Positions 8,714 to 62,372 of a DNA stretch of 64,000 bases are shown piece by piece. The notes below the pieces were generated by a model, which was not told where the DNA came from, ran no database searches, and was given only the letters and a program-made list of their open reading frames with translations. A program made the position numbers and the translations under genes. The DNA is from a virus. Location of the stretch: positions 53,643 to 117,642 of the IMG/VR virus record IMGVR_UViG_3300037502_003770; one strand, written 5' to 3'. Within the stretch, counting starts at the first letter, position 1, and every line of letters starts with the position of its first letter.

Positions 8714-8733
8714 ATTTAAATAAACTTAACAAT

Positions 8734-10375: not shown

Positions 10376-10501
10376 TAAAATATAATATAAAAATATTAAC
10401 ATTTTCAAAGTCTGAAATTTTAACAACATATATTAAAGGATTTTTGAATTCTTCAGAAAAAAAGTATTCTTTAAATAAAAAAGACTTATTAAAAATAAAA
10501 A

Positions 10502-11634: not shown

Positions 11635-12198
11635 ATGAATCAAATAATAATATATACTGAAACTAATTTTTATGTTGAAACATATAAAACTTTATTCTTA
11701 AATAAAAAAACAAACTTACATATATGGTTTCTTTGTAATATAAATAATTTTTCTGATAATATAATTATTAGAGATAAAAAAACTGATAAAAGATATATTA
11801 ATTTAGAAATTAAAAGAAGAATATACGATAGTATTGAAAATATATTCCCATTTAAACATGAAAAAATAAGTTTATTAATAGTAAAAAACTTTTTTGATGT
11901 AATAAAACATATCAAAGCTTTTAAATCTGTGAAAAATGTTACTTATGAAATAAGTAAATATTTTATTGAAAATAATAAATATCAAAGATTACCAAGCATA
12001 AAAAAGAAATATAGAACGCTTGAAATTTGTAAGTTAACAATAAAAAATAATTCTACTTATATAAGTGATGTACCTGAAGAATTATTAAATAACGAAGAAA
12101 TCATAAATACATATCTACAAACTTTAATTAATGAAAATATTAAACGTGCTAAATTTTCTGAAGAAACTATAACTAAATTAAAAAACCTTTCTATATAA
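11635..12198 (+). CDS. FamA-long protein
   Basis: MNQIIIYTETNFYVETYK...; C-terminal ICKLTIKNNSTYISDVPEELLNNEEIINTY. Confidence 0.6.
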   Translation: MNQIIIYTETNFYVETYKTLFLNKKTNLHIWFLCNINNFSDNIIIRDKKTDKRYINLEIKRRIYDSIENIFPFKHEKISLLIVKNFFDVIKHIKAFKSVKNVTYEISKYFIENNKYQRLPSIKKKYRTLEICKLTIKNNSTYISDVPEELLNNEEIINTYLQTLINENIKRAKFSEETITKLKNLSI

Positions 12199-14519: not shown

Positions 14520-14548
14520 AATATAACCTTATTTAAAATAAAAAAACT

Positions 14549-14578
14549 CTCAATTTTAACGATTGGGGGTTTTTTTTG
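14549..14578 (+). terminator. possible weak intrinsic terminator
   Basis: ctcaat/attggg 6-bp stem (one G-U) followed by GGTTTTTTTT. Confidence 0.35.
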
Positions 14579-14607
14579 TAATATAAATAAACATAAACAA
14601 CATTATA

Positions 14608-15855: not shown

Positions 15856-16149
15856 ATGTTAGACATTATTTTATATATAGATTGCTTTCAATATATTGAG
15901 GCAACAATAGTGGATATCGGTTCACCAAAAAAAATCTTATTTAGATTAGATTTAAATAATAAAAATAGAATTTTTATTGAAATAAATAGATTTTCTTTAA
16001 AGAAAGGTTATTTTTCATTAATTAACTTTATAAAAGAACGCAAAATTTTATTTAATGATTTAGATTATATAAATATTTTAGATTTAAAATATTATTTTAA
16101 AATATCAAATTCTATCAAAGAGAAAGATTCTCACCTTGCTTTTCTCTGA
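15856..16149 (+). CDS. FamA-short protein whose 3' end runs into the antisense of TnpB-like copy 1
   Basis: MLDIILYIDCFQYIEAT...DLKYYFKISNSIKEKDSHLAFL. The last ~15 codons lie opposite the TnpB-like C-terminal coding region. Confidence 0.4.
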   Translation: MLDIILYIDCFQYIEATIVDIGSPKKILFRLDLNNKNRIFIEINRFSLKKGYFSLINFIKERKILFNDLDYINILDLKYYFKISNSIKEKDSHLAFL

Positions 16150-22612: not shown

Positions 22613-24000
22613 AATATTAAATTCTTTCAAAGACAAAAGTTTTCACCTTGCTTTTCTCTGAACTTAACTGAAAAACTTTATAAGAATGCAAACATTCTTC
22701 AATAGAAACTCTATATTTCAATTTAGAGTTTTTTATTTTAAGAGAAATTTCTTTCCAATCTGTACATTTAATAAAAGTTTCCTTCCAACGGTCTTTTATT
22801 AACAAATTGGGATAAAAATTTCCCTTATTTCTTTTAATTATACATTCAATTCCTCTGCGTACAATTTCTATTGAGGCATTAATAGCATCAGTATAATCAT
22901 GTTGCAAATTGCCTATAATAGACGAATACGCAGGATTAATTCTGTATAATTTAATATCTTCTATGAATAACCTTTTACTTAAATTTTCAAAAAACAGATT
23001 CCTTTTCCAAAGGTCATTATTTTTTCTGTTATATGTTTTTCCCTTACCAGCGTCTTTTTGTTTAAATGATAAATCTTCAATAAAAACTGCTTTACACTTA
23101 TAATATTTTGCAAGTAATGAAATCTTTTTTGAAATTTCAATTACTTCATGTTTAATTTTATTCTGAAAGTACTTTGCTTTTTCAGAATCAGTAGATAGTT
23201 TTAAAGAAATAAATTTATCAGTTAATTCCTTTAAAGAAAACTCTTGACAATGAATAATTTTATCATCTTCCATTATAGATATACCTATATTATTGGGATT
23301 CATATCTATTCCTAGATACCTTTCTTTTGAAGGAAATTTCTTTTCTTCATATTTAAATTCTTCAAAAGATATATAAATATATTTTAAGTCAAGTTTTACA
23401 CAAAATTTATATCCTTTCTCACCAAACTTTATATCATTTAATTCTTGAAGTTTAAATAATTCTTTTTTAATATTCTTTCTTAAAGAAGGAAGGTATAAAG
23501 GTATATGCACATATTTATTTACTTTAAATATAATTTGATTATTATCAATTATATCTAAATTAAAATAAGAATTTCCTTTATTATTAGTTATTCCTTGACA
23601 CGTAATAGGTGAAAGTTTATTTATTTTAAATTCATCTTTACTTATTTTAGCTTTACACCTTTCATAAAAATTATTCTTTCCTCCGAAAATAACCTTTTCA
23701 TTTTGAAATCTTGTATAAACATCTTTTCCTTCTAAAATAGCATACTCTATTAGTTTAGAATTAAGTTTATTTATATTATTTAAATTAGAAAGTAAAAATT
23801 TTATTTTCTTAATATCAGATATCCCTTCAAAATATCTATTATAGGAGTACCTTACTACAGAGGAGAATTGTTTCATCAAAGAATGAATTTCTTTTAATGA
23901 AGTATCATCTGTAGTGTAAGGCATTTTAATAGTTTTCAAAAGTCTTTAATGTTTATTATAAATAGTAAAAATAAATATAATTTTTTTAACAAATCATTTT
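22598..24000 (-). mobile_element. tnpB-like-only IS element, copy 2, immediately 5' of tRNA-Met
   Basis: Shared 3' flank TAAAATATTAAAT; shared left end at 23951-23980. Confidence 0.55.
22617..23939 (-). CDS. TnpB-like RuvC nuclease paralog 2 (no zinc-finger insertion)
   Basis: 440 aa, near-identical to copies 1 and 3; GIDMNPNNIG, AVFIEDLSF, INPAYSSIIGNLQHDYTDAINASIEI. Confidence 0.75.
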   Translation of the reverse strand: MKTIKMPYTTDDTSLKEIHSLMKQFSSVVRYSYNRYFEGISDIKKIKFLLSNLNNINKLNSKLIEYAILEGKDVYTRFQNEKVIFGGKNNFYERCKAKISKDEFKINKLSPITCQGITNNKGNSYFNLDIIDNNQIIFKVNKYVHIPLYLPSLRKNIKKELFKLQELNDIKFGEKGYKFCVKLDLKYIYISFEEFKYEEKKFPSKERYLGIDMNPNNIGISIMEDDKIIHCQEFSLKELTDKFISLKLSTDSEKAKYFQNKIKHEVIEISKKISLLAKYYKCKAVFIEDLSFKQKDAGKGKTYNRKNNDLWKRNLFFENLSKRLFIEDIKLYRINPAYSSIIGNLQHDYTDAINASIEIVRRGIECIIKRNKGNFYPNLLIKDRWKETFIKCTDWKEISLKIKNSKLKYRVSIEECLHSYKVFQLSSEKSKVKTFVFERI

Positions 24001-24029
24001 AAATCAAGTATTATATAAACAAACACAAT

Positions 24030-24103
24030 GGACCTATAGCGCAACTGGTCAGAGCAGCTGACTCATAATCAGCAGGTTTCAGGTTCAAATCCTGATAGGT
24101 CCA
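24030..24103 (+). tRNA. tRNA-Met (anticodon CAT; could also be initiator or tRNA-Ile2 type)
   Basis: Acceptor ggaccta/taggtcc; anticodon stem gctga/tcagc with loop ctCATaa; T-arm tcagg-ttcaaat-cctga; D-loop with GG; no encoded CCA. Confidence 0.8.
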
Positions 24104-24121
24104 CTTTAAAATTTTATAAAA

Positions 24122-28355: not shown

Positions 28356-28426
28356 TAATTTTTTAACAAAAAAGAATCTTTCTTGTAATATAAATCAATT
28401 CAATGTTCAACTAAACAAAAAAAACA
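28356..28426 (+). promoter_or_regulatory. degenerate TPC cassette copy (leader type 1)
   Basis: ttttttaacaaaaaagaatctttcttgtaatataaatcaa...ctaaacaaaaaaaacaATG. Confidence 0.4.
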
Positions 28427-29023: not shown

Positions 29024-29052
29024 TACTTAAAAAACAATAACTTACTTAATAA

Positions 29053-29085
29053 AAAGTCTATTTTAAAAGAATAGGCTTTTTATTT
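29053..29085 (+). terminator. intrinsic terminator (related to the TPC hairpin)
   Basis: aagtctatt-ttaaaag-aataggctt 9-bp stem (one G-U) followed by a T-run. Confidence 0.55.
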
Positions 29086-31019: not shown

Positions 31020-31523
31020 ATGAAACATAACATACAACAAGAAAAATTTTCTTTATTTATTGAAAAAAATTTCATAATAGAATATGAAAAAAATACCACA
31101 TCATATAGAATAGATGTTTATAATGATGTAAAAAAATATGATAAATATCTTATTGACAAATATATTAAAACGGATGATACTTTTCGAGTACTAAACTTAT
31201 TTCAAAATTTAAAATTAGAATATTATAATGGTTTATTATCATTAAATTTTGAAAGAAAAGAACATATTTATATAAATTATAGTTCTCTTGAATATGGTAC
31301 TCAACATAATAAAGAAAAATTCCTAAACGAAGTAATTAAATATTTACCGCAAACAGATTTAACTAAAAAAATAGATTTTTCTAAAAGAAATATTTTTGGT
31401 AGTACAAATCATGTATTTATTAAAGACATACCTTTTTTTAATGAAAAATTTATTCCATTAAATGTAGAACCTTATGTAAAAAATGCTATTACTAATAATA
31501 ATTTTTTAATAAATTATATATAG
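31020..31523 (+). CDS. hypothetical protein
   Basis: 167-aa ORF. Confidence 0.45.
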   Translation: MKHNIQQEKFSLFIEKNFIIEYEKNTTSYRIDVYNDVKKYDKYLIDKYIKTDDTFRVLNLFQNLKLEYYNGLLSLNFERKEHIYINYSSLEYGTQHNKEKFLNEVIKYLPQTDLTKKIDFSKRNIFGSTNHVFIKDIPFFNEKFIPLNVEPYVKNAITNNNFLINYI

Positions 31524-31542: not shown

Positions 31543-31619
31543 TTTAACAAAAAACATTATTTCTTGTAGTATAAATCAGTTCAAACAAAACAACAATTAA
31601 ACAAAAACAATTTTCTCTT
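31543..31619 (+). promoter_or_regulatory. degenerate TPC cassette copy (leader type 1)
   Basis: ttttaacaaaaaacattatttcttgtagtataaatcagttcaaacaaaacaa... Confidence 0.4.
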
Positions 31620-32429: not shown

Positions 32430-32449
32430 GAAGAAATAAAATTATATTA

Positions 32450-32486
32450 AAAGACTTCTATTTTAAAAGATAGAAGTCTTTTTAAA
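32450..32486 (+). terminator. intrinsic terminator (TPC-hairpin relative)
   Basis: aaagacttctat-tttaaaag-atagaagtcttt 12-bp stem. Confidence 0.65.
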
Positions 32487-32809: not shown

Positions 32810-33293
32810 TACAGAACATTGTTTTTATCAAGAAATTAATTATTATTTAGAATATAATATTAAACCAATTTTTATTTTAATAAATAAGTTTTTTTCTGAG
32901 GAATGGTTTCTTCCTTTAATTGGTATAACTTATTTTTATAATAATTTATTTCATAATAAAACAGTTAAATCTTTAAGAAAAACTCATCTTTATGAATATA
33001 TATTATTAAGTTTTTTACGTATTAGGATGAAACTTGATAAATTAAATAAAACCACAATAAAACAAAGTGTTGATAATTTTATTCATCATACACATATAAC
33101 ATATTATACAGAAAATATTTGTAAAGAATTAATAAAATATTATGGTATTGAAATTATTAAATTTTTACCAAATAAATTCTTTACTAAAAAACTGTATATT
33201 TTTATGTATGATTTATTAGGCAATGAATTGCTTTCTTTACATAAAATATCAAATTCTTTCAAAGACAAAGGTTTTCACCTTGCTTTTCCTTGA
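32793..33293 (+). CDS. FamA protein whose 3' end runs into the antisense of TnpB-like copy 3
   Basis: ORF track 32739..33293; motif MNININTEHCFYQEIN from ATG 32793; tail ...KISNSFKDKGFHLAFP lies opposite the TnpB-like C-terminus. Confidence 0.4.
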   Translation: MNININTEHCFYQEINYYLEYNIKPIFILINKFFSEEWFLPLIGITYFYNNLFHNKTVKSLRKTHLYEYILLSFLRIRMKLDKLNKTTIKQSVDNFIHHTHITYYTENICKELIKYYGIEIIKFLPNKFFTKKLYIFMYDLLGNELLSLHKISNSFKDKGFHLAFP

Positions 33294-34640
33294 ATTTAAC
33301 TCAAAAACTTTATAAGAATGTAAACATTCCTCAATAGAAACTCTATATTTCAATCCAGAGTTTTTTATTTTAAGGGAAACTTCCTTCCAATCCTTACATT
33401 TAATAAAAGTTTCCTTCCAACGGTCTTTTATTAATAGATTTGGATAAAAATTTCCCTTATTTCTTTTAATTATACATTGAATTCCTCTGCGTACAATTTC
33501 TATCGAGGCATTAACAGTATCAGTATAATCATGTTGCAAATTGCCTATGATAGATGAATACGCAGGATTTATTCTGTATAATTTAATATCTTCAATAAAT
33601 AATCTCTTTGAAAGGTTCTCTACAAACAAATTTCTTTTCCAAAGGTTATTATTTTTCCTGTTATATGTTGTTCCTTTACCAGCATTTTTATCTTTAAAAG
33701 ATAAATCTTCAATAAAAACAGCTTTACAATTATAATATTTTGCAATCAAAGAAATCTTTTTTGAAATTTCGATTGTTTCAAATTGTATTTTATTTTGAAA
33801 GTACTTTGCTTTATCAGAAGAAGAATCTAATTTTAAAGAAATAAATTTATCTATTAACTCTTTTAAAGAAAATTCTTGACAATAAATAAGTTTATCATCT
33901 TCCATAATAGAAATACCTATATTATTAGGATTCATATCTATTCCTAGATATCTTTCTTTTGAAGGGAGAAATTTCTTTTCTTCATTTTTAAATTCTTCAA
34001 AAGAAATATAAATATATTTTAAATCAAGTTTAATAGAAAATTTATAACCTTTTTCAAAATTAGGTTTTACATCATTTAATTCTTGAAGTTTATACAAATC
34101 TTTTTTAATATTTTTCCTTAAAGAAGGTAAATATAAAGGTATATGTAATTTTTTATTTACTTTAAAAATGATTTGATTATTATCAATTATATCTAATTCA
34201 AAATAAGAATTTCCTCTATTATTGGTAACACCTTGACACGTAATAGGTGAAAGTTTATTTATTTTAAATTCATCTTTACTTATATTTCCTTTACATCTTT
34301 CATAAAAATTATTCTTTCCACCAAAAATAACCTTTTGATTTTTAAATCTTGTGTGAACATCTTTTCCTTCTAAAATAGCGTATTCTATTAATTTAGAATT
34401 TAAATCTTGAATATTATTTAAACCTTTAAGTAAAGACTTTATTTTTTTAATATCAGTTATTCCTTCAAAATACCTATTATAAGAAAACCTTACTACAGAA
34501 GAGAATTGTTTCATTAAAGAATGAATTTCTTTTAATGAATTTACATCAGTTGTATAAGGCATTTTAATAGTTTTCAAAAGTATTTAATGTTTATTATAAA
34601 TAGTAAAAATAAATTATTCTTTTAACAAATAGAAGTCTTT
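33232..34640 (-). mobile_element. tnpB-like-only IS element, copy 3
   Basis: Shared 3' flank TAAAATATCAAAT; shared left end at 34589-34618, then ttttaacaaatagaagtcttttctgtattata which matches the 3' half of the TPC hairpin. Confidence 0.55.
33249..34577 (-). CDS. TnpB-like RuvC nuclease paralog 3 (no zinc-finger insertion)
   Basis: 442 aa; GIDMNPNNIG, AVFIEDLSF, INPAYSSIIGNLQHDYTDTVNASIEI. Confidence 0.75.
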   Translation of the reverse strand: MKTIKMPYTTDVNSLKEIHSLMKQFSSVVRFSYNRYFEGITDIKKIKSLLKGLNNIQDLNSKLIEYAILEGKDVHTRFKNQKVIFGGKNNFYERCKGNISKDEFKINKLSPITCQGVTNNRGNSYFELDIIDNNQIIFKVNKKLHIPLYLPSLRKNIKKDLYKLQELNDVKPNFEKGYKFSIKLDLKYIYISFEEFKNEEKKFLPSKERYLGIDMNPNNIGISIMEDDKLIYCQEFSLKELIDKFISLKLDSSSDKAKYFQNKIQFETIEISKKISLIAKYYNCKAVFIEDLSFKDKNAGKGTTYNRKNNNLWKRNLFVENLSKRLFIEDIKLYRINPAYSSIIGNLQHDYTDTVNASIEIVRRGIQCIIKRNKGNFYPNLLIKDRWKETFIKCKDWKEVSLKIKNSGLKYRVSIEECLHSYKVFELNSRKSKVKTFVFERI

Positions 34641-34674
34641 TCTGTATTATAAAATAATAAACATTTATAAAAAA

Positions 34675-42193: not shown

Positions 42194-42248
42194 TTTCTTT
42201 TAACAAAAAAGAATTATTTCCTTAATATAATAAAACCCTTCTAAAAAT

Positions 42249-45247: not shown

Positions 45248-45320
45248 AAAGGGAATTTTTTTAAGACTTCTTTTTTAACAGAAAGAAGTCTTTTTTGTAT
45301 TATAATTAAACCTTTAAAAA
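45248..45320 (+). promoter_or_regulatory. TPC cassette (terminator hairpin + promoter-like block)
   Basis: aagacttcttt-tttaacag-aaagaagtctt perfect 11-bp stem at 45263-45292, then a T-run and ttgtattataat. Confidence 0.6.
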
Positions 45321-45335
45321 AATCTTTTCTTTAAT

Positions 45336-45731
45336 ATGTCAGCATTTGAAATATTCTCAATCTTTACATCTATTATAATAACAAGTTGCTTTTTAGTTAC
45401 TTGGAATATTATTAATTATTGTAAGAATTTTGTTGATAAATATAATAAAGATTACAATAATCTTGTAGATGATTATAATTCTTTACTTAAAGAACATAAA
45501 CAAAATATTGAAGACTATAATTTTCTTTTAAATGATGTAAATGAAAACCATATATTTAAATATAATATGATGGTTGATAAATATAATGATTTATTACTTG
45601 AAACAAAACTTCTTAAAGAAGAACCTAAAGAAGTACATTTAAATTTTTTACTTGAGAAAGTTTCTTTATTAGGAGAAGAATCTTTAACTGAAAAACAAAA
45701 ATTATATTTAAAAAAGTTTTCTTTAAAATGA
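45336..45731 (+). CDS. membrane-anchored hypothetical protein with DYNxL repeats
   Basis: N-terminal TM; repeated KDYNNL/DDYNSL/EDYNFL/DKYNDL. Confidence 0.45.
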   Translation: MSAFEIFSIFTSIIITSCFLVTWNIINYCKNFVDKYNKDYNNLVDDYNSLLKEHKQNIEDYNFLLNDVNENHIFKYNMMVDKYNDLLLETKLLKEEPKEVHLNFLLEKVSLLGEESLTEKQKLYLKKFSLK

Positions 45732-45982
45732 TACAAATTTTTAATAATAATTTTATTTACTATGAAAGTAGTAATTTTAAAAAATGTTTAAATTTTTATT
45801 TAGGTAATCTTATTTTTATAGATACAGGATTATTATATAATAAAAGTTTTATTTATGAAGTATATAAACTTTTAGATTTAAAATATATATTAAAAGATTT
45901 AAACTATAAACATAAAAGTAGAATTAAGACATTTACTCAATATTGTTATAATTTTAATAACGATAATAAACCTTATTTATGA
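45728..45982 (+). CDS. FamA-short protein (second array)
   Basis: MIQIFNNNFIYYESSN; ATGA overlap. Confidence 0.5.
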   Translation: MIQIFNNNFIYYESSNFKKCLNFYLGNLIFIDTGLLYNKSFIYEVYKLLDLKYILKDLNYKHKSRIKTFTQYCYNFNNDNKPYL

Positions 45983-46245
45983 GAATAAAAATATTTAATA
46001 ATAATCTTTTTTATTTTGAATTAAATTCTAATAATAAAGATTACTACTATTCAAATATAAAAATTATTGATATTGGTTTTCTTTTAAATAAAGAATTTTT
46101 ATTTGAACTTTATCAAGTTATAAGAAGCGATTCTTCTATTCAATTAACAACTTTTAATATTCATTATTTATATGATAAATGTAGATTTTTTATTGATTTT
46201 AATTTAGAATATAATTTAAATGATAACCCATACCTTTATTTATGA
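45979..46245 (+). CDS. FamA-short protein
   Basis: MRIKIFNNNLFYFELNS. Confidence 0.5.
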   Translation: MRIKIFNNNLFYFELNSNNKDYYYSNIKIIDIGFLLNKEFLFELYQVIRSDSSIQLTTFNIHYLYDKCRFFIDFNLEYNLNDNPYLYL

Positions 46246-46535
46246 AAATTTTTATCTTTAAAGAAAACTTGTTTTATTGTGAGTGTTATACCCCTTTTAG
46301 ATTTGGTAGTCATATTATATTTTTATATATAAATTCTTATTTTATTGAAACAAATGATTTAAATATAGTGTATCATTTTGATAATACTTTTGAATATTCA
46401 ATACGTTTTAATTTAAAACCTTTTGACAAAACAAATGATAATATAAATCAGTTATTTCTTATTTTAAAATATGCTTCTAAAAGTAGAAGTGTAATTTTTT
46501 CAAAAAAAGAATCTTATTATTACAAAACGAAATGA
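46242..46535 (+). CDS. FamA-short protein
   Basis: MKIFIFKENLFYCECY. Confidence 0.5.
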   Translation: MKIFIFKENLFYCECYTPFRFGSHIIFLYINSYFIETNDLNIVYHFDNTFEYSIRFNLKPFDKTNDNINQLFLILKYASKSRSVIFSKKESYYYKTK

Positions 46536-46825
46536 GAATATTAATCTTTAATAACTATATGTATTATTTTGAATTTTTTCATACGCACAGTACATATTAC
46601 AAAAATCCATTATATTTATATATAAATTCTTATTTTCTTGAGACAAGTAATATTGATATTTATTATTATCTAGTAAAATATTTTGAATATAGTATTGTAT
46701 TTTTTAGATATAAAAAATCACTTGAAAATATAAAAGATTTATTTTTAAAATTAAAATTTGAATATAATACTTTTGAATCCATACCTTTCTTTTATAAAAA
46801 ACGAAATGAAAATATTAATCTTTAA
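46532..46825 (+). CDS. FamA-short protein (stop lost; reads past the next start)
   Basis: MRILIFNNYMYYFEFF...PFFYKKRNENINL. Confidence 0.45.
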   Translation: MRILIFNNYMYYFEFFHTHSTYYKNPLYLYINSYFLETSNIDIYYYLVKYFEYSIVFFRYKKSLENIKDLFLKLKFEYNTFESIPFFYKKRNENINL

Positions 46826-47099
46826 TAACAATTTGTTTTATTTAGAAAATGATTTTCAATTCTATGAAACATTCTTATTGATAAATTCTAAAATAATTGA
46901 AACTAACAAGCTTATAACAATATTTTTATTTGTTAAACGAGATAATAAGAATTTACAAACAGTATATAATTTTTGTAATATATCTTTAAATGTATTGTAT
47001 GAAGTTGCAATGGAATATTACAAAATTAATGTTTTAAATAAACCTTTAACTTCAAGTGGTATAGCTTATAAACCTTTCTTTTATAAAAAACGAACATGA
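46806..47099 (+). CDS. FamA-short protein
   Basis: ORF track 46758..47099; motif MKILIFNNNLFYLEND from ATG 46806; C-terminus KPFFYKKRT; stop overlaps the pth ATG (ATGA). Confidence 0.5.
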   Translation: MKILIFNNNLFYLENDFQFYETFLLINSKIIETNKLITIFLFVKRDNKNLQTVYNFCNISLNVLYEVAMEYYKINVLNKPLTSSGIAYKPFFYKKRT

Positions 47100-47635
47100 A
47101 CACTAACAAATACTTAATAGTTGGGTTGGGCAATCCTGAAGATAAACATAGATTCAATAGACATAATATTGGATATAGAGTTGCTGATAAGTTTGCAAAA
47201 CATTATCAAGGAAAAGAATTTAAACATTACAGTAAAAACTCTTTACTTTCAAAAGTAAATTTTTCTGATAAGGAAATATATGTTTTAAAACCATTAACTT
47301 ATATGAACTTATCAGGTCTTGCAGTAAAAGAAATTATTAAAGATTTTGATATTCCTTTAGAAAATGTTTTAATTATAACAGATGATATTTCTTTAGATTT
47401 TGGTAAACTAAGATTAAGAAATAAAGGAAGTGCTGGTGGTCACAATGGTTTAAAAAACATTGAAAAAGAATTACAAACTGATGAGTATTCTCGTCTTAAA
47501 ATAGGTATTGGTTCAGACTTTAAAAAAGGTGAACTAATTGATTTTGTACTAGGTAATTTTACAATGGAAGAAGAACTTGGTTTATCTTTAATTCATCTTG
47601 AATCTTTTAAAATAATTGAAAACTTTATTAACTAA
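47096..47635 (+). CDS. pth: peptidyl-tRNA hydrolase
   Basis: LIVGLGNPEDKHRFNRHNIGYRV, LTYMNLSG, GHNGLKNI are Pth signatures. Confidence 0.9.
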   Translation: MNTNKYLIVGLGNPEDKHRFNRHNIGYRVADKFAKHYQGKEFKHYSKNSLLSKVNFSDKEIYVLKPLTYMNLSGLAVKEIIKDFDIPLENVLIITDDISLDFGKLRLRNKGSAGGHNGLKNIEKELQTDEYSRLKIGIGSDFKKGELIDFVLGNFTMEEELGLSLIHLESFKIIENFIN

Positions 47636-47906
47636 AAATATGTATATAATCACTTCTTATTACTTTTCAATATTATTAGTTCTATTCATAATAGTAACTG
47701 TTTTATTTAAACCTTCTTTATTTAAAAGGTTTATTATATTGTACTTTAAATTGTTTGGTATTGATTATTATGATAATTATTATGATTTTGAAAAATTTTT
47801 TATATGGATAGCTTTAGTACTTTTCATATTATTACCTTTTATTGCAATACCATTAATATTACTTATTTTATTTATTGGAAGAATAATTAAAATATTAAAA
47901 AATTAA
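47616..47906 (+). CDS. small membrane protein (2-3 TM)
   Basis: Hydrophobic 96-aa ORF. Confidence 0.4.
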   Translation: MKTLLTKNMYIITSYYFSILLVLFIIVTVLFKPSLFKRFIILYFKLFGIDYYDNYYDFEKFFIWIALVLFILLPFIAIPLILLILFIGRIIKILKN

Positions 47907-47956
47907 CTTTCTTTAAGAAAAAATATATTATTAAAAGAAACTAAACTTTAAAAGAA

Positions 47957-57553: not shown

Positions 57554-57907
57554 ATGAATATGAAAACAGAAGTTAATGAATGGAAAGATGGTAGGTTTGC
57601 TATTTTTGATTCCGAAACAAAAAAGATTCTTGATGATGCACAAGGTTATGGTTATAAAACCAAACAAAATGCTTTAAAAGCTATGTGGTATAAATTTAAA
57701 GGTGGTAAAGAAAAGAAAGATGAAGAAAAGGAATTATTTAATAAATGGATAAAAGAAAATAAAAAAGTTTATAATACAATAAATGATTATTTTGAATCAG
57801 CTTTTAAAGAAATAGCAAGAGGTGAAACAACTATTAAAGAAATTTATCAAGAAATAGAAGAAGAATTTAATATTAAAATACCTGATTATGTAATTAAAAA
57901 TATGTAA
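57554..57907 (+). CDS. hypothetical protein
   Basis: 117-aa ORF. Confidence 0.4.
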   Translation: MNMKTEVNEWKDGRFAIFDSETKKILDDAQGYGYKTKQNALKAMWYKFKGGKEKKDEEKELFNKWIKENKKVYNTINDYFESAFKEIARGETTIKEIYQEIEEEFNIKIPDYVIKNM

Positions 57908-57913
57908 CCTTTT

Positions 57914-58309
57914 ATGAATAAAATAACTATTTTTAATGAAAATTTTATTTATTTAGAAATGATTATTTCTAATATGGAATATTTAAATATAACAAATTTA
58001 TATATAAATAAATACACTTTAAAATCAATGGATAAAGAAGATGAAAATGTTGTCTCATTTATAGCATCTATTTTATTAGATAGATTAAATTTATTTAAAG
58101 ATTGGTATTTTTATTTCTATAAAATAACAGTAGAAAGTGAATTTAGATATATAAGTTTTGTATATAATACAATAATGAATCAACAAGAATATTATGATAT
58201 TATATATAAGATATATTTAAAAGATAAATCTATTATTGAAAAATATAGAGAAATTTTAACACCTAAAGTTGTCAGAAATCTTTTAGAAAATAATAAAATT
58301 ATTTCTTAA
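57914..58309 (+). CDS. FamA protein
   Basis: MNKITIFNENFIYLEMI; C-terminal YLKDKSIIEKY is DUF4116-like. Confidence 0.5.
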   Translation: MNKITIFNENFIYLEMIISNMEYLNITNLYINKYTLKSMDKEDENVVSFIASILLDRLNLFKDWYFYFYKITVESEFRYISFVYNTIMNQQEYYDIIYKIYLKDKSIIEKYREILTPKVVRNLLENNKIIS

Positions 58310-58360
58310 CTAAAAAGATATATTTCTGTAATATAAATCAAACTAAACAAAAACGGCAAT
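58302..58360 (+). promoter_or_regulatory. TPC cassette, partial (leader type 1)
   Basis: ttaactaaaaagatatatttctgtaatataaatcaaactaaacaaaaacggcaatATG. Confidence 0.45.
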
Positions 58361-58678
58361 ATGAAAAAAATCTTATTCTTAATATTATTTTCTATAATAA
58401 GTGTTTCTTTTTACTCATGTGGTAAACAAAGGAAAAGTAACACAAAAAATTATACTTTAATTTATGAAGCACCTTGTTTACCTGAGTATATTATTTTTTA
58501 TGATGAAACATTAAAAGAAACGGTAACATATTCTTCACATAAAGCAAAAAATGATAATATAACTGAATTTACTTGTCAGTATGTTAAAATTTCATTAAAA
58601 CAAAAATATTCTGAAATAATAATCAAAGATACTATTGGTTATCAAAAAATGTTTTACACTCGTGATTTACAATATTAA
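58361..58678 (+). CDS. lipoprotein
   Basis: MKKILFLILFSIISVSFYSCGK lipobox. Confidence 0.5.
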   Translation: MKKILFLILFSIISVSFYSCGKQRKSNTKNYTLIYEAPCLPEYIIFYDETLKETVTYSSHKAKNDNITEFTCQYVKISLKQKYSEIIIKDTIGYQKMFYTRDLQY

Positions 58679-58680
58679 TA

Positions 58681-58787
58681 ATATGTAAGCGTAGTAAAGC
58701 TCCGTTAATGATAGGTTAAACTAAGGGTTTGGCTCTATGTGCGAGAAACCCTGAAAGACCCGAAAAACGCTTACATATTTTTATTTT
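58681..58787 (+). ncRNA. candidate structured small RNA or palindromic element bounded by a 12-bp perfect inverted repeat
   Basis: ATATGTAAGCGT...ACGCTTACATAT encloses ~83 nt of locally GC-enriched sequence with an internal agggtt/aaccct hairpin, followed by TTTTATTTT; non-coding and intergenic. Confidence 0.35.
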
Positions 58788-58828
58788 AAATAAAATTCTT
58801 TACTTAAAAAAACTTTAAGAATATTATC

Positions 58829-59824
58829 ATGAAACTAACAAAAAAAGTAGAAGAAAAAATAATAGCGGTTTATACTGAAAAAAATGGTTTCACCAAAGTA
58901 ATGAAGGATGGAAAAATGAATCTTCTAAATAAAGAAGGTGTATTAATTTCAGATACTTGGTATGATAATATTTTTTATAATGGACTAAATAATTTTTTGA
59001 TTGTAGAAGTTGAAGACAAATATAATTTTTTAAATGATGATTTTAAATTAATTTCAGATACTTGGTATGATAATATTTCAGGTTTTAATAATAATTATTG
59101 TTTTGTTTATTCTGATACGATAGATAAACAAAATCTTATTAATAAAGAAGGTAAAATTTTATTAGATACTTGGTGTGATTATATTGAAAATCTTAGTTAC
59201 CTTAACGATAAAGATTTCTTTATAAAAGTACATATTGATGGTAAAACTAATATCTTTAATGAAAATTTAAATTTACTGTCAAATGTTTGGTATGATTCAA
59301 TATATATTGTAAATGATTATAACATTAGAAAAAGTAGAAAAAATACAACACATACTATATTAGTAGAGCGTGATAAAAAATATAATTTTATTAATAGAGA
59401 TGGTAAATTATTATCTGACACTTGGTTTGATAATGCTTTCAATTTTACATTTGAGTTTGCTAGTGTAACTCTTAATGATAAAGTTAATTTTATTAATAGA
59501 GATGGTAAATTATTATCTGACACTTGGTTTGATAATGCTTCTAATTTTCACTATAATAATTATACTTTATCTGAAGTTGTATTAAATAATAAAGTTAATT
59601 TTATTAATAGAGACGGTAAACTAGTATCTGACACTTGGTTTGATTATGTTAACCTTCATCCTGATAGTGAGTATGGTATTGTAAGAATTAATGATAAATT
59701 TGGTTTAATAAATAAAAAATGTTTATTGGAAACAGAAGTAATCTATGATGAAATAAAACGAATTAGTATGTCTGATAAGTTTGAATTTCATTTAAATGGT
59801 GAAGTTTATGTTCAAGAAGAATAA
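58829..59824 (+). CDS. repeat protein with about 9 tandem (K/D)x(N/V)FIN(R/K)DGKL(L/V)SDTW(F/Y)DN units (WG-repeat-like)
   Basis: Clear ~25-aa periodic repeat; resembles WG/KWG-type repeats. Confidence 0.5.
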   Translation: MKLTKKVEEKIIAVYTEKNGFTKVMKDGKMNLLNKEGVLISDTWYDNIFYNGLNNFLIVEVEDKYNFLNDDFKLISDTWYDNISGFNNNYCFVYSDTIDKQNLINKEGKILLDTWCDYIENLSYLNDKDFFIKVHIDGKTNIFNENLNLLSNVWYDSIYIVNDYNIRKSRKNTTHTILVERDKKYNFINRDGKLLSDTWFDNAFNFTFEFASVTLNDKVNFINRDGKLLSDTWFDNASNFHYNNYTLSEVVLNNKVNFINRDGKLVSDTWFDYVNLHPDSEYGIVRINDKFGLINKKCLLETEVIYDEIKRISMSDKFEFHLNGEVYVQEE

Positions 59825-59827
59825 AAA

Positions 59828-59906
59828 TTCAAAAAGACTTCTTTTTTAACAGAAAGAGGTCTTTTTCTGTAATATAGATAATTTTAACCTTTAAATAAAT
59901 CAGTAA
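59828..59906 (+). promoter_or_regulatory. TPC cassette (leader type 2)
   Basis: aagacttcttt-tttaacag-aaagaggtctt (one G-U), then tttctgtaatatagataattttaaccttta. Confidence 0.6.
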
Positions 59907-60521
59907 ATGACAAAATATAATGAAGTAAAGAAGTTTTTCAATAATGAAATATTTTCTCAATTACCTTCTCATCATTTTACAAGTATTGTGGGTAGAACCA
60001 CTAAATTTGCTAAAGTTATAGCAAACCTTAACCCTACTTTGGTTATACCTGGAGAACATATTGATAAATTAAAAACTTTTATTTCATATATAGTATGGTT
60101 AGACTCTTCACCAACTAAATATGACCGATTTGGTGGTATTCTTACTGTGGAATATTTAGAAGAAATAATGAGAGTTATTGTTTATGAAATAATATTTTGT
60201 AAACAAATGAAACTTGACAATTCTTTTAGGAAACCTGAAAATAATACTTACTATAGATTTGAGATTGATAGTAATGAATCTTTAAATACAGAAGATTATA
60301 TATCTATCTTAGATAGTTTACCTGATTTGGAAGCTATAAAATCTGAAGAAAATGAAAATGTAATATTTGAAAAAATATTTTTACTATCACAAGAATTATA
60401 TAACCCTCAGCATCCAATAAGAAGATTTTTATATTCTAAATTTTCTTTATATGAGATACAAACAGTTATATCTGATATCATACTAACTAATGATTATGAG
60501 AAAATTCAATATAAATTATAA
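59907..60521 (+). CDS. hypothetical protein
   Basis: 204-aa ORF. Confidence 0.45.
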   Translation: MTKYNEVKKFFNNEIFSQLPSHHFTSIVGRTTKFAKVIANLNPTLVIPGEHIDKLKTFISYIVWLDSSPTKYDRFGGILTVEYLEEIMRVIVYEIIFCKQMKLDNSFRKPENNTYYRFEIDSNESLNTEDYISILDSLPDLEAIKSEENENVIFEKIFLLSQELYNPQHPIRRFLYSKFSLYEIQTVISDIILTNDYEKIQYKL

Positions 60522-60526
60522 TAATT

Positions 60527-60748
60527 ATGACTTTAGATAACTGTTTACCTGATGGCTACGTTCCAATTTCAAATGTATCTTTTTCTGAAAGAATGAAGAT
60601 TATTAATAATATATTTATCCCAACAGAAGAAATTTATATTAGAAAAGAAACTTCTTGGGAAAGAATAACTTTTTATAAACAAGTTGTCTTTGAATATGAA
60701 ATAGCTATTTCAGGTAGAGATTTTTTTGAAGTAAACAAACTTAAATAA
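60527..60748 (+). CDS. small hypothetical protein
   Basis: 73-aa ORF. Confidence 0.35.
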   Translation: MTLDNCLPDGYVPISNVSFSERMKIINNIFIPTEEIYIRKETSWERITFYKQVVFEYEIAISGRDFFEVNKLK

Positions 60749-60771
60749 TTATCACCTTTAAAACATTTATT

Positions 60772-61356
60772 ATGCAAAAAGTTAAACTAACATTATTTGA
60801 CAATGAATTTAGATTTGGTGAACCTACTAAATTTTATGAAGTCAAAAAAGAATATTATTTCCTATCAAATAGGAGTTCTACTGAGATAAAAGAAATTTTT
60901 GCAAAATCAAATGAATTAACAGGACTTGATTTTGAAAAACTCTTTTTAAGAAGAAATGAATATAATAGACGATATACTTTAAATAAAGATGAAATTTCAA
61001 TTCTTGAAGAAAACGGTATTGATTTTTCAAAAGTTCTTAGTACTTTTTTTTATTCTCACATGATATTTTTAGATTTAAGTCGTGATGGTGAAGGTGGTTA
61101 TGTTTTTAAAGAATATGATTCAATAAAATTATTTGTTGAATATGTAAAATTATCAGACCCCGAAATAATTTTAGAACTAGTTGATGGGTATGATAAATTA
61201 TTTAAAGACAGTAATAATCAGAAAATATGGGATGAATATTCAAAATTATCCGATTCTGAAACAATAATTAGATTGATTGAACCATACTCAAATGAGTATG
61301 AAAATATTGATGTTTCTTTTATATTATGGTTAGCTAGTATTTATAATTATTCATAA
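60772..61356 (+). CDS. hypothetical protein
   Basis: 194-aa ORF. Confidence 0.45.
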   Translation: MQKVKLTLFDNEFRFGEPTKFYEVKKEYYFLSNRSSTEIKEIFAKSNELTGLDFEKLFLRRNEYNRRYTLNKDEISILEENGIDFSKVLSTFFYSHMIFLDLSRDGEGGYVFKEYDSIKLFVEYVKLSDPEIILELVDGYDKLFKDSNNQKIWDEYSKLSDSETIIRLIEPYSNEYENIDVSFILWLASIYNYS

Positions 61357-61404
61357 TTAGTACTAAATTAAAGATAAACAATATTTTATAAACAAAATTA
61401 AATA

Positions 61405-61490
61405 AAAATTCTTTTCTTTCAATAATACTTCTTTTTTAACAGAAAGAAGTATTTTTTGTAATATAGATAATCTTAAACTTTAAATCATTT
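61405..61490 (+). promoter_or_regulatory. TPC cassette (leader type 2; stem variant with a compensatory T-A pair)
   Basis: ttcttttctttcaataatacttcttttttaacagaaagaagtattttttgtaatatagataatcttaaacttta. Confidence 0.6.
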
Positions 61491-61871
61491 ATGAAAAACA
61501 TACTTCTTAAAATAAGTATATTCTTAATGAATATAAATTTCTTGAAAGGAAAAATATCTTTTTCATTAAAAAGTGATATACTAAAGAAATATTTTGCACC
61601 TTATGTTTCTCGTTCTTTTGAAAAACAATCTTTTAACCCTATAATTATTTTTAAAGAATATGATAACGCAATCATTGAATATGGTAAAATATTTAATGAT
61701 GATTATAGTTCTCCTGATTTATGGTCTAGGTATAAAGGTTATCAAAAAGGTAGATATAATTATAATAAATCCGAATATAAAGGAAATTTTATACAAAATA
61801 TTTGTTTAAGAATTATTATTTTTAATGTGAAAATACCTATTTTAAGGAAAAGATTTGTATATAAAAGTTAA
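61491..61871 (+). CDS. hypothetical protein
   Basis: 126-aa ORF. Confidence 0.4.
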   Translation: MKNILLKISIFLMNINFLKGKISFSLKSDILKKYFAPYVSRSFEKQSFNPIIIFKEYDNAIIEYGKIFNDDYSSPDLWSRYKGYQKGRYNYNKSEYKGNFIQNICLRIIIFNVKIPILRKRFVYKS

Positions 61872-61914
61872 ACAGTTTAATAGTACTGAAATACGTCTGA
61901 TAAAATTATTAATC

Positions 61915-61981
61915 TCAAAAATACTTCTTTTAACAGAAAGAAGTATATTTTGTAATATAGATAATCTTAACCTTTATCAAA
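61915..61981 (+). promoter_or_regulatory. TPC cassette (leader type 2; shortened loop)
   Basis: aaaaatacttcttttaacagaaagaagtatattttgtaatatagataatcttaaccttta. Confidence 0.55.
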
Positions 61982-62287
61982 ATGAATAGAAAAACAGAAC
62001 TTCATGAAGAATTAAAATCTTTATTTGAAAATAAACTTAAAGAAGATAGGGATTTTAAACTATCTTTTGACGAACAAGAAGTACCATTCACATTAGAAGT
62101 AAAATATACGGGTAGTAATGAAGTAACACAATTTAAAACATATATAAAATCATTTAGTTGGTATGGATTTTTAATGTGTGATTTTTATACTTTACCTGAA
62201 GATGAAAATTTTAAAGATGGTTTTTGTCAGATAATTGTTGATTACACAGAAGAACAATTAGAATATTTTATAAGCAAACTTAAATAA
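61982..62287 (+). CDS. hypothetical protein
   Basis: 101-aa ORF. Confidence 0.4.
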   Translation: MNRKTELHEELKSLFENKLKEDRDFKLSFDEQEVPFTLEVKYTGSNEVTQFKTYIKSFSWYGFLMCDFYTLPEDENFKDGFCQIIVDYTEEQLEYFISKLK

Positions 62288-62291
62288 AATT

Positions 62292-62372
62292 CTTTTCCTT
62301 TCAAAAATACTTCTTTTTTAACAGAAAGAAGTATTTTTTGTAATATAGATAATCTTAACCTTTAGAACATTT
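62292..62372 (+). promoter_or_regulatory. TPC cassette (leader type 2)
   Basis: ttcttttcctttcaaaaatacttcttttttaacagaaagaagtattttttgtaatatagataatcttaacctttag. Confidence 0.6.

What the first reader, a model, noticed from the sequence alone, without database searches (positions are those of the whole stretch)
45248..62372. Repeated ~70-nt terminator, promoter and leader cassette (TPC) placed in front of many unrelated genes, with compensatory stem substitutions
At least ten copies of (tcctttcaa)AAAAGACTTCTTTTTTAACAGAAAGAAGTCTTTTTTGTAATATA(G/A)AT... lie 45-60 nt upstream of unrelated genes. The positions are 45248, 54570, 54993, 55826, 58302, 59828, 61405, 61915 and 62292, with degenerate copies at 28356 and 31543 and hairpin-only relatives at 29053 and 32450. 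Copies come in two leader types, ...taaatcaaactaaacaaaaaaa-ATG and ...tagataatcttaacctttag..ATG. Three copies (61405, 61915, 62292) changed AAGACTTC/GAAGTCTT to AATACTTC/GAAGTATT, a double change that keeps base pairing. The 59828 copy has a single change that gives a G-U pair. That pattern indicates selection on the RNA hairpin. The cassette looks like a mobile or duplicated unit combining a bidirectional terminator with a promoter-like block, giving each downstream gene identical transcription signals.
Basis: seen in the sequence. Interest (0 to 1): 0.6.

Follow-up and report, generated by a model that had tools for sequence, protein, structure and literature searches.

The report
Phage promoter–terminator cassettes, PeSL-like
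An uncultured giant phage puts near-identical ~70-base units in front of many small unrelated genes; each unit combines a transcription stop hairpin with a start signal, and the design matches the "PeSL" cassettes already described in T4-like phages, so it is a good new example, not a new kind of element.

Summary
Nine copies lie between 45.2 and 62.4 kb, all on the gene strand, and degenerate or partial relatives lie elsewhere in the window. The conserved block reads as a two-block promoter, TTAACA-N17-TA(A/T)TAT. This motif occurs 31 times on the + strand, 2 times on the - strand, and 2.6 times by chance. Twenty-four copies are intergenic, mostly 20-47 nt before a start codon. In seven cassette copies, and in one unrelated stem at 14540, a 13-16 bp hairpin followed by a T-run overlaps the promoter. 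The -35 hexamer sits at the loop apex, and the 3' arm plus T-run form the spacer. The stem shows two compensatory double changes and several G·U pairs, and it folds better as + strand RNA. Related metagenomic contigs carry different genes next to the same gene, and the breakpoints fall in the T-run/-10 core. This matches PeSLs, the promoter-early stem-loop cassettes of T4-like phages. The host phage is a ~313 kb, 21% GC uncultured jumbo phage, probably infecting Bacteroidota. Its promoter consensus does not match the Bacteroidota sigma-A consensus. Promoter activity, termination and timing are inferred, not shown. Verdict: new member of a known kind, moderate interest.

The parts
45263..45303 (+). 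Cassette copy A. Hairpin 45263-45292, -35 TTAACA 45275-45280, -10 TATTAT 45298-45303. The leader runs to the ATG at 45336.
54589..54617 (+). Cassette copy B. -35 TTAACA 54589-54594, -10 TAATAT 54612-54617. The 5' arm is degenerate, so there is no stable hairpin. Type-1 leader to the ATG at 54650.
54995..55039 (+). Cassette copy C. 16-bp hairpin 54995-55030 (dG -16.0), -35 55010-55015 at the loop apex, 18-nt spacer, -10 55034-55039. Type-1 leader to the ATG at 55071 (Bax1-I family membrane protein).
55835..55878 (+). Cassette copy D. Hairpin 55835-55870 (dG -16.1), -35 55850-55855, -10 55873-55878. The leader runs to the ATG at 55908 (lipoprotein).
58306..58334 (+). Cassette copy E, promoter and type-1 leader only. 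-35 TTAACT 58306-58311 overlaps the stop codon of the upstream gene. -10 58329-58334. No hairpin. ATG at 58361 (lipoprotein).
59831..59875 (+). Cassette copy F. Hairpin 59831-59866 with one extra G·U pair (dG -15.8 as + strand RNA, -10.8 as - strand RNA), -35 59846-59851, -10 59870-59875. Type-2 leader to the ATG at 59907.
61424..61464 (+). Cassette copy G. Hairpin 61424-61453 with the U-A variant of the G-C pair, -35 61436-61441, -10 61459-61464. Type-2 leader to the ATG at 61491.
61916..61958 (+). Cassette copy H. Hairpin 61916-61952 (two T fewer in the 5' arm, one bulge, U-A variant), -35 61930-61935, -10 61953-61958. Type-2 leader to the ATG at 61982.
62303..62346 (+). Cassette copy I. Hairpin 62303-62338 (U-A variant, dG -14.0), -35 62318-62323, -10 62341-62346. 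Type-2 leader to the ATG at 62373.
14540..14584 (+). Same architecture with an unrelated stem. Hairpin 14540-14576 (CTCTCAAT/ATTGGGGG, needs two G·U pairs; dG -14.6 on +, -5.8 on -). -35 TTAACG 14556-14561 lies in the loop. -10 14579-14584. The ortholog in relative L004 has ATTGGGAG.
32449..32483 (+). Terminator-only relative of the cassette hairpin. It has the same distal stem, a U-A to A-U double change, loop TTAAAA instead of TTAACA, and no -10 box.
29049..29080 (+). Terminator-only hairpin, more distant relative: AAAAAGTCTATT/AATAGGCTTTT followed by a T-run.
28363..28391 (+). Degenerate copy. TTAACA-N17-TAATAT with a weak hairpin (dG -6.5) and a type-1-like leader, before the outer-membrane beta-barrel gene at 28427.
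31544..31572 (+). Degenerate copy. TTAACA-N17-TAGTAT with a type-1-like leader and no hairpin, before the Band 7 lipoprotein gene at 31620.
34622..34650 (+). Half cassette. TTAACA-N17-TATTAT whose spacer is the 3' arm ATAGAAGTCTTTT. The 5' arm is missing, and the end of a TnpB-like element lies 9 nt upstream.
23986..24014 (+). Same promoter class without a hairpin. The -10 ends 15 nt before the tRNA-Met gene (24030-24104).
42200..42228 (+). Same promoter class with a weak loop-centred hairpin, before the RNA ligase gene at 42249. Further members of the class start at 5259, 10360, 12674, 26448, 40594, 43373, 44403, 47903 and 48884.

Best explanation
The cassette is a composite transcription unit boundary of a phage: an intrinsic terminator overlaid on a promoter, followed by a short leader without a Shine-Dalgarno sequence.

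How it is proposed to work:
- RNA from the upstream gene folds into a 13-16 bp A/U-rich hairpin (AAAAAGACUUCUUUUU-UAAC-AGAAAGAAGUCUUUUU) followed by U's, and is released there.
- The same DNA is a two-block promoter. The hexamer TTAACA sits at the hairpin apex and serves as the -35. The 3' arm plus T-run is the 17-bp spacer. (T)TG-TA(A/T)TAT is the -10.
- Transcription would start a few bases downstream and give a 15-30 nt A-rich, G-poor leader.
- Each small gene or short operon therefore becomes an insulated unit with the same signals.
- The near-identical copies arose by duplication and recombination. They also act as portable homology. Crossovers in the T-run/-10 core swap, insert or delete the genes between them, as described for the PeSL cassettes of T4-like phages.

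Shown here: the sequence anatomy, the motif enrichment, the strand and position bias, the fold energies, the stem variation and the synteny breakpoints.

Inferred: promoter activity, termination, timing and the identity of the polymerase or sigma factor.
For: - Motif statistics. TTAAC[N]-N16-18-TA[N]TAT occurs 31 times on the + strand and 2 times on the - strand, against 2.6 +/- 1.6 expected in 200 order-2 Markov simulations. The spacer is 17 nt in 28 cases, 18 nt in 3 and 16 nt in none. Twenty-four sites are intergenic. In 22 of these the -10 ends 20-47 nt before the next ATG. One precedes the tRNA by 15 nt.
- Features not imposed by the search pattern. G lies just before the -10 in 19 of 24 sites, the 3' half of the spacer is T-rich, and A follows the hexamer in 21 of 24.
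- Hairpins. They centre on the -35, with dG -11.9 to -16.1 and z -4.6 to -6.8, in copies A, C, D, F, G, H and I. An unrelated stem at 14540 has the same layout.
- Strand preference. The + strand RNA folds better than the - strand RNA in all four hairpins tested: -16.1/-14.9, -15.8/-10.8, -14.6/-5.8 and -14.0/-12.8.
- Stem variation. Among 16 pairs, two show double compensatory changes and one changes to G·U. 95.5% of cells are paired, against 60-73% when the 3' partner is slid by 1-3 columns. The ortholog of the 14540 stem in L004 differs by G·U to A-U.
- Position. The hairpins begin shortly after the upstream stop codon.
- Relatives. The Bax1-I gene keeps its own -10 and leader upstream and its hairpin downstream, but has different neighbours in L009/L010 and in L011. 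Homology starts in the T-run at 55027 and ends just after the -10 near 55880. L006 lacks 58813-59883, which holds the WG-repeat gene plus hairpin F. L007/L008 join an E-type promoter directly to the leader of the g59907 homolog. Independent assemblies from different samples agree on these arrangements.
- Literature. PeSLs are sigma70-like promoters combined with stem-loop terminators. The stem-loop may overlap the -35. They are dense in hyperplastic ORFan regions and mediate indels and replacements (PMC2839356; PMC4122927).
- Independent parallel. In Tenacibaculum phage pT24, 5 of 7 intergenic host-type promoters have a terminator hairpin that carries the -33 TTTG in its loop or 5' arm, with the T-run as spacer.
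Against: - No transcript data exist, so start sites, termination and timing are all unverified.
- The stems are A/U-rich, with only 3 G-C pairs. The generic terminator scan reported only copy A. My reading of its stated rules is that it extends the stem into the A/T runs of the other copies and then finds too few T's after it.
- Sixteen of the 24 promoters of the class lack a strong hairpin, and copies B and E of the cassette family have lost it. The overlap is therefore not obligatory.
- If the host belongs to Bacteroidota, as the absence of SD (3 of 115 genes), the SC lipoboxes and the best phage relatives suggest, the motif does not fit the host sigma-A consensus TTTG/TAnnTTTG (PMC9723704). 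No sigma or RNA polymerase gene lies in the window. The enzyme that would read the motif is unknown.
- The covariation is thin: two independent double changes among closely related copies.
- The recombination role rests on five short metagenomic contigs. Not all breakpoints are at cassettes: the L006 left breakpoint is at 57909, and the L004 deletion covers 8386-10982.
Confidence: 0.75

Rival explanations
1. Hairpin-dependent promoter. The stem-loop is extruded in the DNA and is itself the recognition element of a phage (virion) RNA polymerase, as in phage N4 early promoters. It is not a terminator.
For: The conserved hexamer sits exactly at the apex of the hairpin in eight sites. The motif does not fit the presumed host's sigma-A consensus.
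Against: - Sixteen of 24 intergenic sites with the same two blocks and the same 17-nt spacing have no stable hairpin.
- The stems need G·U pairs and fold better as + strand RNA; the 14540 stem gives -14.6 against -5.8.
- The hairpin is always followed by a T-run and follows a stop codon.
- Terminator-only relatives exist without the downstream block (32449, 29049).
Confidence: 0.04
2. Mobile DNA element or site-specific recombination site. The repeats would be a MITE-like element or an attC-like site of a gene-cassette system moved by a dedicated recombinase. The promoter resemblance would be incidental.
For: An imperfect palindrome recurs between unrelated small ORFs in one orientation. Gene content differs at these sites between relatives. 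The PeSL authors themselves left open homologous versus site-specific recombination (PMC4122927). TnpB-type elements sit next to three promoters of the class.
Against: - All copies are on the gene strand at a fixed distance from a start codon.
- I saw no target-site duplications or terminal inverted repeats beyond the hairpin when reading the copies.
- No integrase or recombinase family is present among the 119 window proteins.
- Breakpoints lie in the longest shared stretch (T-run/-10), as expected for homologous exchange.
- The two-block motif also exists without the palindrome.
Confidence: 0.08
3. Terminator plus conserved leader only. The TTAACA...TA(A/T)TAT block would not be a promoter but part of a conserved 3' end or 5' UTR element (stability, processing or translation signal), and the genes would be read from distant promoters.
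For: No transcript data exist. The generic sigma70 scan cannot tell promoters from background in this 21% GC DNA: 233 hits found against 195 expected.
Against: - The two blocks keep a strict 17-nt spacing (28 of 31) even where the spacer sequence is unrelated.
- The motif precedes a tRNA gene by 15 nt, and follows minus-strand elements where no upstream + strand transcript can arrive (10360, 23986, 34622).
- A terminator immediately upstream would leave the downstream genes without transcription.
Confidence: 0.06

Closest known systems
PeSLs (promoter-early stem-loops) of T4-like phages RB49/phi1, T4/PST and KVP40/nt-1 (Arbiol et al. 2010, PMC2839356; Comeau et al. 2014, PMC4122927)
   Same: Both are repeated intergenic cassettes of a -35/N17/-10 promoter plus a terminator stem-loop. 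The stem-loop may overlap the -35. Both are dense in regions of small ORFan genes and lie next to insertions, deletions and replacements between close relatives. Degraded 'half' copies occur in both.
   Different: The host phage here is not a recognisable T4 relative. The consensus is TTAACA/TA(A/T)TAT. There is no Shine-Dalgarno at the 3' end. The stem is A/U-rich, not polyG/polyC, and the same stem sequence is reused in most copies. Promoter and terminator activity and mini-circles were shown experimentally for PeSLs but not here. 'Early' timing and use of the host sigma are unknown here.
Terminator hairpin overlapping host-type promoters in Tenacibaculum jumbo phage pT24 (seen here; I know of no published description)
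   Same: The hairpin is followed by a T-run, the upstream promoter element lies in the loop or 5' arm, the T-run serves as spacer, and the downstream box lies 20-24 nt before the ATG. It is a jumbo phage with a Bacteroidota host.
   Different: The promoter is the Bacteroidota sigma-A type (TTTG-N17-21-TAnnTTTG). Every stem is a different sequence, so it is a shared design and not a repeated cassette.
Morons of lambdoid phages (a gene with its own promoter and terminator). Comparison taken from the discussion in PMC2839356.
   Same: Single accessory genes are insulated by their own promoter and terminator.
   Different: Moron flanks are not conserved repeats and are not thought to mediate the exchange.
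Phage N4 early promoters (DNA hairpin recognised by the virion RNA polymerase). From my own knowledge, not checked here.
   Same: A conserved sequence sits at the top of a short hairpin upstream of early genes.
   Different: In N4 the hairpin is obligatory and there is no -10 box at 17 nt. Here most promoters of the class lack the hairpin, and the stems use G·U pairs.

Membership tests
PeSL composite promoter-terminator cassette | Repeated intergenic motif with a two-block (-35 / about 17 nt / -10) promoter upstream of a gene start | tested here: met
   The motif occurs 31 times on the + strand, 2 on the - strand and 2.6 by chance. The spacer is 17 nt in 28 of 31. Twenty-four sites are intergenic, mostly 20-47 nt before an ATG.
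PeSL composite promoter-terminator cassette | Stable stem-loop next to or overlapping the promoter, placed to terminate upstream transcription | tested here: met
   Eight sites have dG -11.9 to -16.1 with a T-run after the stem and the -35 at the apex. Copies B and E and most other promoters of the class lack it.
PeSL composite promoter-terminator cassette | Concentrated among small non-essential or ORFan genes (hyperplastic region) | tested here: met
   There are eight copies in 54.5-62.4 kb. Most downstream proteins have no Pfam family. Whether the region is hyperplastic on the scale of the whole genome cannot be seen from one window.
PeSL composite promoter-terminator cassette | Insertions, deletions or replacements between close relatives with junctions in the cassette | tested here: met
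   The junctions at 55027, about 55880, 59844 and 59884 all fall inside or within about 10 nt of a cassette, in relatives L006-L011. The sample is small, and some breakpoints lie elsewhere.
PeSL composite promoter-terminator cassette | Measured promoter and terminator activity; early expression by host sigma70 RNA polymerase | not testable with these tools
   The phage is uncultured and no transcript data are available. The motif does not fit the presumed host's sigma-A consensus.
PeSL composite promoter-terminator cassette | Formation of mini-circles by recombination between neighbouring copies | not testable with these tools
   This needs inverse PCR or read-level analysis.
PeSL composite promoter-terminator cassette | Carried by a T4-like myovirus (the taxon in which PeSLs were defined) | tested here: not met
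   There is no nucleotide match to known phages. The Rad50-like protein matches best a 735-kb uncultured phage (31% identity) and Tenacibaculum jumbo phages; T4-like hits cover 14-26% of the query. This is a matter of taxon, not mechanism.
Intrinsic (Rho-independent) terminator | Stem-loop directly followed by a U-tract, downstream of a stop codon, on the transcribed strand | tested here: met
   The stems are 13-16 bp with 6-8 T after them. The hairpins begin shortly after the upstream stop codon (one search gives stop to -35 distances of 21-122 nt for the cassette copies). They fold better on the + strand. G-C content is low, at 3 pairs.
Bacteroidota sigma-A promoter (-33 TTTG / -7 TAnnTTTG) | TAnnTTTG box enriched upstream of genes on the coding strand | tested here: not met
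   TAnnTTTG occurs 67 times on the + strand and 67 on the - strand, and only 4 lie within 80 nt upstream of a start. No two-block match lies upstream of any gene. As a positive control, phage pT24 gives 9 against 1.
N4-type hairpin promoter | Hairpin present at every promoter of the class | tested here: not met
   Sixteen of 24 sites have no stable hairpin.
Integron-like gene cassette array (attC sites) | Tyrosine recombinase (IntI) nearby | tested here: not met
   No integrase or recombinase family was found among the 119 window proteins. The rest of the ~313-kb genome was not available.
MITE / small non-autonomous transposon | Target-site duplications, and insertion in either orientation regardless of genes | tested here: not met
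   All copies lie on the + strand at a fixed distance from a start codon. I saw no flanking duplications when reading the copies.

The most novel reading that the evidence does not exclude
The TTAACA-N17-TA(A/T)TAT class may be a phage-specific promoter type, read by a sigma factor or RNA polymerase encoded elsewhere in this ~313-kb genome, in a phage whose host (Bacteroidota) uses a quite different consensus. The repeated cassettes would then form an integrase-free gene-cassette exchange system for huge phages of this phylum. That would extend the PeSL principle well outside T4-like phages and couple it to a private transcription code.
Probability: 0.3. Interest if true: 0.55.

Novelty: new member of a known kind. 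Interest (0 to 1): 0.35.

Why it matters
If correct, composite promoter-terminator cassettes that both insulate accessory genes and serve as recombination handles are not a peculiarity of T4-like coliphages and vibriophages. They would recur in an unrelated, uncultured jumbo phage lineage. Overlaying the terminator on the upstream promoter element would be a shared compaction design, since it is also seen in Tenacibaculum phage pT24. The work also gives a ready promoter model for annotating transcription units in this phage group. Finally, it flags a mismatch between phage and presumed host promoter consensus that points to phage-encoded transcription specificity.

Tried and rejected
- Searching for the cassette elsewhere. 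An exact 22-mer of the hairpin and a looser loop-to-(-10) pattern found nothing in IMG/VR. In GTDB genomes and JGI metagenome contigs they found only one unrelated Firmicute contig, a chance match. A type-1 leader 26-mer and a generic promoter pattern in IMG/VR gave nothing, or two chance hits in 37% GC contigs.
- Megablast of 24 kb against known phages gave no match.
- A single-protein scan of IMG/VR with the AAA ATPase gave no relatives.
- The generic sigma70 scan is uninformative in 21% GC DNA: 233 hits against 195 expected.
- The Bacteroidota-type promoter search shows no enrichment.
- Rfam found only the tRNA.
- The N4-like hairpin promoter, MITE/attC and 'leader only' readings were rejected for the reasons given under the rival explanations.
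- Leader type versus protein class. Type-1 leaders precede five envelope proteins out of five (g28427, g31620, g54650, g55071, g58361). Type-2 leaders precede one or two out of five. My one-sided hand estimate is p of about 0.02-0.08, and the comparison is confounded by shared ancestry of the copies, so I do not treat it as established.
- Fetching the 312,694-nt JGI contig that holds an identical protein failed; only short Logan contigs of the same phage were returned.
- Sample accessions were not found in the paper library.

Full report
**Context.** The window has 21% GC. Almost all ORFs lie on the + strand and are tightly packed. There is one tRNA-Met. Pfam and PHROG hits are those of a large phage carrying many auxiliary genes: AAA ATPase, RNA ligase, DNA methylase, ABC transporter parts, OmpA and outer-membrane beta-barrel proteins, Band 7, ClpS, Bax1-I, peptidyl-tRNA hydrolase and TnpB. 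There is no sigma factor, RNA polymerase or integrase. A protein identical to g59907 is recorded on a 312,694-nt JGI contig. The same phage is present as short Logan contigs of SRR12611921. No known phage matches at the nucleotide level. A Rad50-like protein of the close relative L004 matches best a 735-kb uncultured phage (31% identity over 90% of the query) and then Tenacibaculum jumbo phages. Only 3 of 115 genes have anything like a Shine-Dalgarno sequence, and G is depleted upstream of starts. Lipoprotein signals end in ...FYSC or ...MQSC. Lack of SD is a trait of Bacteroidota (PMC6847099, abstract seen; PMC9723704). I therefore take the window to be part of an uncultured jumbo phage, probably of a Bacteroidota host. 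The host is an inference.

**The observation.** The hairpin core matches six times with at most 3 mismatches, all on the + strand, with none expected by chance. Reading the intergenic regions confirms nine copies between 45.2 and 62.4 kb, degenerate copies near 28363 and 31544, and hairpin-only relatives at 29049-29080 and 32449-32483. The two leader types are real. The downstream proteins are unrelated apart from one shared lipoprotein signal peptide.

**What the conserved block is.** The loop and what follows read TTAACA, 17 nt, TA(A/T)TAT. I searched TTAAC[N]-N16-18-TA[N]TAT over the whole window. There are 31 hits on the + strand and 2 on the - strand, against 2.6 +/- 1.6 (maximum 7) in 200 order-2 Markov simulations. 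The spacer is 17 nt in 28 hits, 18 nt in 3 and 16 nt in none. Twenty-four hits are intergenic. In 22 of these the second hexamer ends 20-47 nt before the next ATG. One ends 15 nt before the tRNA, and one lies 113 nt before g10502. The invariance of the hexamer letters is imposed by the search pattern. Other features are not imposed: G lies just before the second hexamer in 19 of 24 sites, the 3' half of the spacer is T-rich, and A follows the hexamer in 21 of 24. The same class is seen in the close relative L004 at orthologous sites, and at an additional terminator-then-promoter site.

**The hairpin.** In copies A, C, D, F, G, H and I the RNA folds into a 13-16 bp stem with loop UAAC, at dG -11.9 to -16.1 kcal/mol and z -4.6 to -6.8. 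The -35 hexamer is the apex of the hairpin. The 3' arm plus T-run is the spacer. The -10 follows within 0-6 nt of the stem. Copies B and E have lost the 5' arm. A site at 14540-14584 has the same layout with an unrelated stem (CTCTCAAT/ATTGGGGG) that needs two G·U pairs. Its ortholog in L004 has ATTGGGAG, a G·U to A-U change. All four hairpins tested fold better as + strand RNA than as - strand RNA: -16.1/-14.9, -15.8/-10.8, -14.6/-5.8 and -14.0/-12.8. This argues for an RNA hairpin on the gene strand and not a DNA cruciform. It also shows that 'bidirectional' is at best a property of the main family.

On an alignment of seven copies, 95.5% of cells pair, against 60-73% when the 3' partner is slid by 1-3 columns. 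Two of 16 pairs show double changes: G-C to U-A, shared by G, H and I, and U-A to A-U in the terminator-only copy 32449. One pair changes to G·U. G, H and I also share their leader and flanks (D9, D18), so their double change is probably one event.

Other anatomies occur in the same window:
- Terminator only: 6310, 8110, 27658, 29049 and 32449.
- Terminator immediately followed by the promoter: 26407 and 43302.
- Promoter only.

**Relatives.** Three protein searches and exact look-ups gave five informative short contigs from other samples.

- *Around the Bax1-I gene (55071-55817).* L009/L010 and L011 are 87% identical to the window from 55027 to about 55914 only. Upstream, homology begins in the T-run, 7 nt before the -10. 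The relatives have a hairpin-less TTAACT-N17-TAATAT that overlaps the stop codon of a different gene, which in L009 is a 43%-identical relative of g60772.
- *Downstream of Bax1-I.* The 3' end of the gene, the hairpin and the T-run are conserved. In L009 the hairpin carries the same G·U variant as window copy F. In L011 two T are missing and G is changed to T next to the loop. Similarity stops within a few bases of the -10, and different genes follow.
- *Around g59907.* L006 lacks 58813-59883, which holds the WG-repeat gene plus hairpin F, with the right junction 9 nt after the -10. L007/L008 join an E-type promoter to the leader of the g59907 homolog.
- *Reproducibility.* The arrangements of L007/L008 and of L009/L010 each recur in independent assemblies, so they are not single misassemblies.
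- *Exceptions.* Not every difference is at a cassette. The left end of homology in L006 lies at a gene start without a cassette. L004 differs by a deletion around a TnpB element and by recombination between DUF4116 paralogs.

[quoted passage not shown] Five subclasses are distinguished by the position of the stem-loop, including overlap with the -35. PeSLs are dense in hyperplastic ORFan regions. They lie next to indels and replacements and recombine to give mini-circles. Consensus and stem type differ between phage groups (PMC2839356; PMC4122927). Every sequence-level feature of that definition is met here.

The experimental features cannot be tested. The phage is not a T4 relative. There is no SD. 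The stems are A/U-rich and reuse one sequence.

As a further comparison I read 37 kb of Tenacibaculum phage pT24. There the Bacteroidota-type motif TTTG-N17-21-TAnnTTTG occurs 9 times on the gene strand and once on the other. Five of the 7 intergenic sites have a terminator hairpin (dG -8.9 to -20.1) that carries the TTTG in its loop or 5' arm, with the T-run as spacer. Overlaying the terminator on the upstream promoter element is therefore a recurring compact design. In pT24 each stem is unique and the promoter is host-type.

**The open point.** The window shows no enrichment of TAnnTTTG: 67 on the + strand against 67 on the - strand, with 4 near starts. If the host is a Bacteroidota, the TTAACA/TA(A/T)TAT class is not the host sigma-A type (PMC9723704). 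A phage-encoded sigma or polymerase, or another host sigma, would then have to read it. Nothing in the window settles this.

**Verdict.** The most likely mechanism is a PeSL-like composite terminator-promoter-leader cassette that insulates accessory genes and provides homology for gene shuffling (confidence about 0.75). It is a new member of a known kind, of moderate interest.

Noticed in passing
window 16105-17430, 22617-23939, 33249-34577 (all - strand): Three 86-92% identical copies of a ~1.3-kb element encode a 441-aa protein with no Pfam hit. It is a divergent TnpB/Cas12f-like RuvC nuclease. The evidence: 986 cluster representatives in the 50%-identity library; invariant D213, E289 and D352; borderline profile hits to Cas12b, TnpB and Cas12f (E 0.01-0.03); an AlphaFold model with pLDDT 89; Foldseek matches to Cas12f at E 2e-10 and to TnpB at 5e-7.
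   Followed up: yes
window 10330-10348, 17449-17467, 23958-23976, 34596-34614 (approximate): The canonical TnpB (9085-10311, - strand) and the three TnpB-like elements share the 19-nt block TATAAATAGTAAAAATAAA just upstream of their starts. In three of the four cases a TTAACA-N17-TAWTAT promoter begins within about 12 nt beyond that end. At 34622 only the 3' arm of a cassette hairpin survives. The elements seem to sit at, or to have been retained at, promoter or cassette sites.
   Followed up: partly
window 58679-58790 (+): A GC-rich (for this genome) element of about 110 nt is closed by a 13-bp stem (UAAUAUGUAAGCG...CGCUUACAUAUU) and followed by a U-run. It folds at dG -26.6 with z -2.4. No Rfam family matches. 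It is about 90% conserved in relative L006, with the changes confined to one internal stretch. It is a candidate small RNA of unknown kind, lying between the lipoprotein gene and the WG-repeat gene.
   Followed up: partly
L013 (Tenacibaculum phage pT24, NC_049383) 2047-2106, 6452-6510, 11791-11850, 31028-31087, 33511-33569: Host-type promoters (TTTG...TAnnTTTG) have a terminator hairpin laid over the -33 element and the T-run as spacer. This is the same composite design as in the window, but each stem is unique.
   Followed up: partly
window 18548, 18910, 45711, 46228, 57903; L007 1239-1288: A family of small paralogous ORFs has conserved 5' ends, with the same ~45-60 nt around the start (D13/D16, 43). 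It is spread over the window and over relatives.
   Followed up: no
window 8386-10982 and 11640-12149 compared with L004: The close relative L004 (94-97% nucleotide identity) lacks the TnpB region and one of the DUF4116 paralogs. These rearrangements are unrelated to the cassettes.
   Followed up: partly
window 23986-24104: The tRNA-Met gene has its own promoter of the same class, with the -10 ending 15 nt before the mature 5' end.
   Followed up: partly
L011 1036-1056: In one relative a (TA)n microsatellite has expanded at the -10 box of the cassette downstream of the Bax1-I gene.
   Followed up: no
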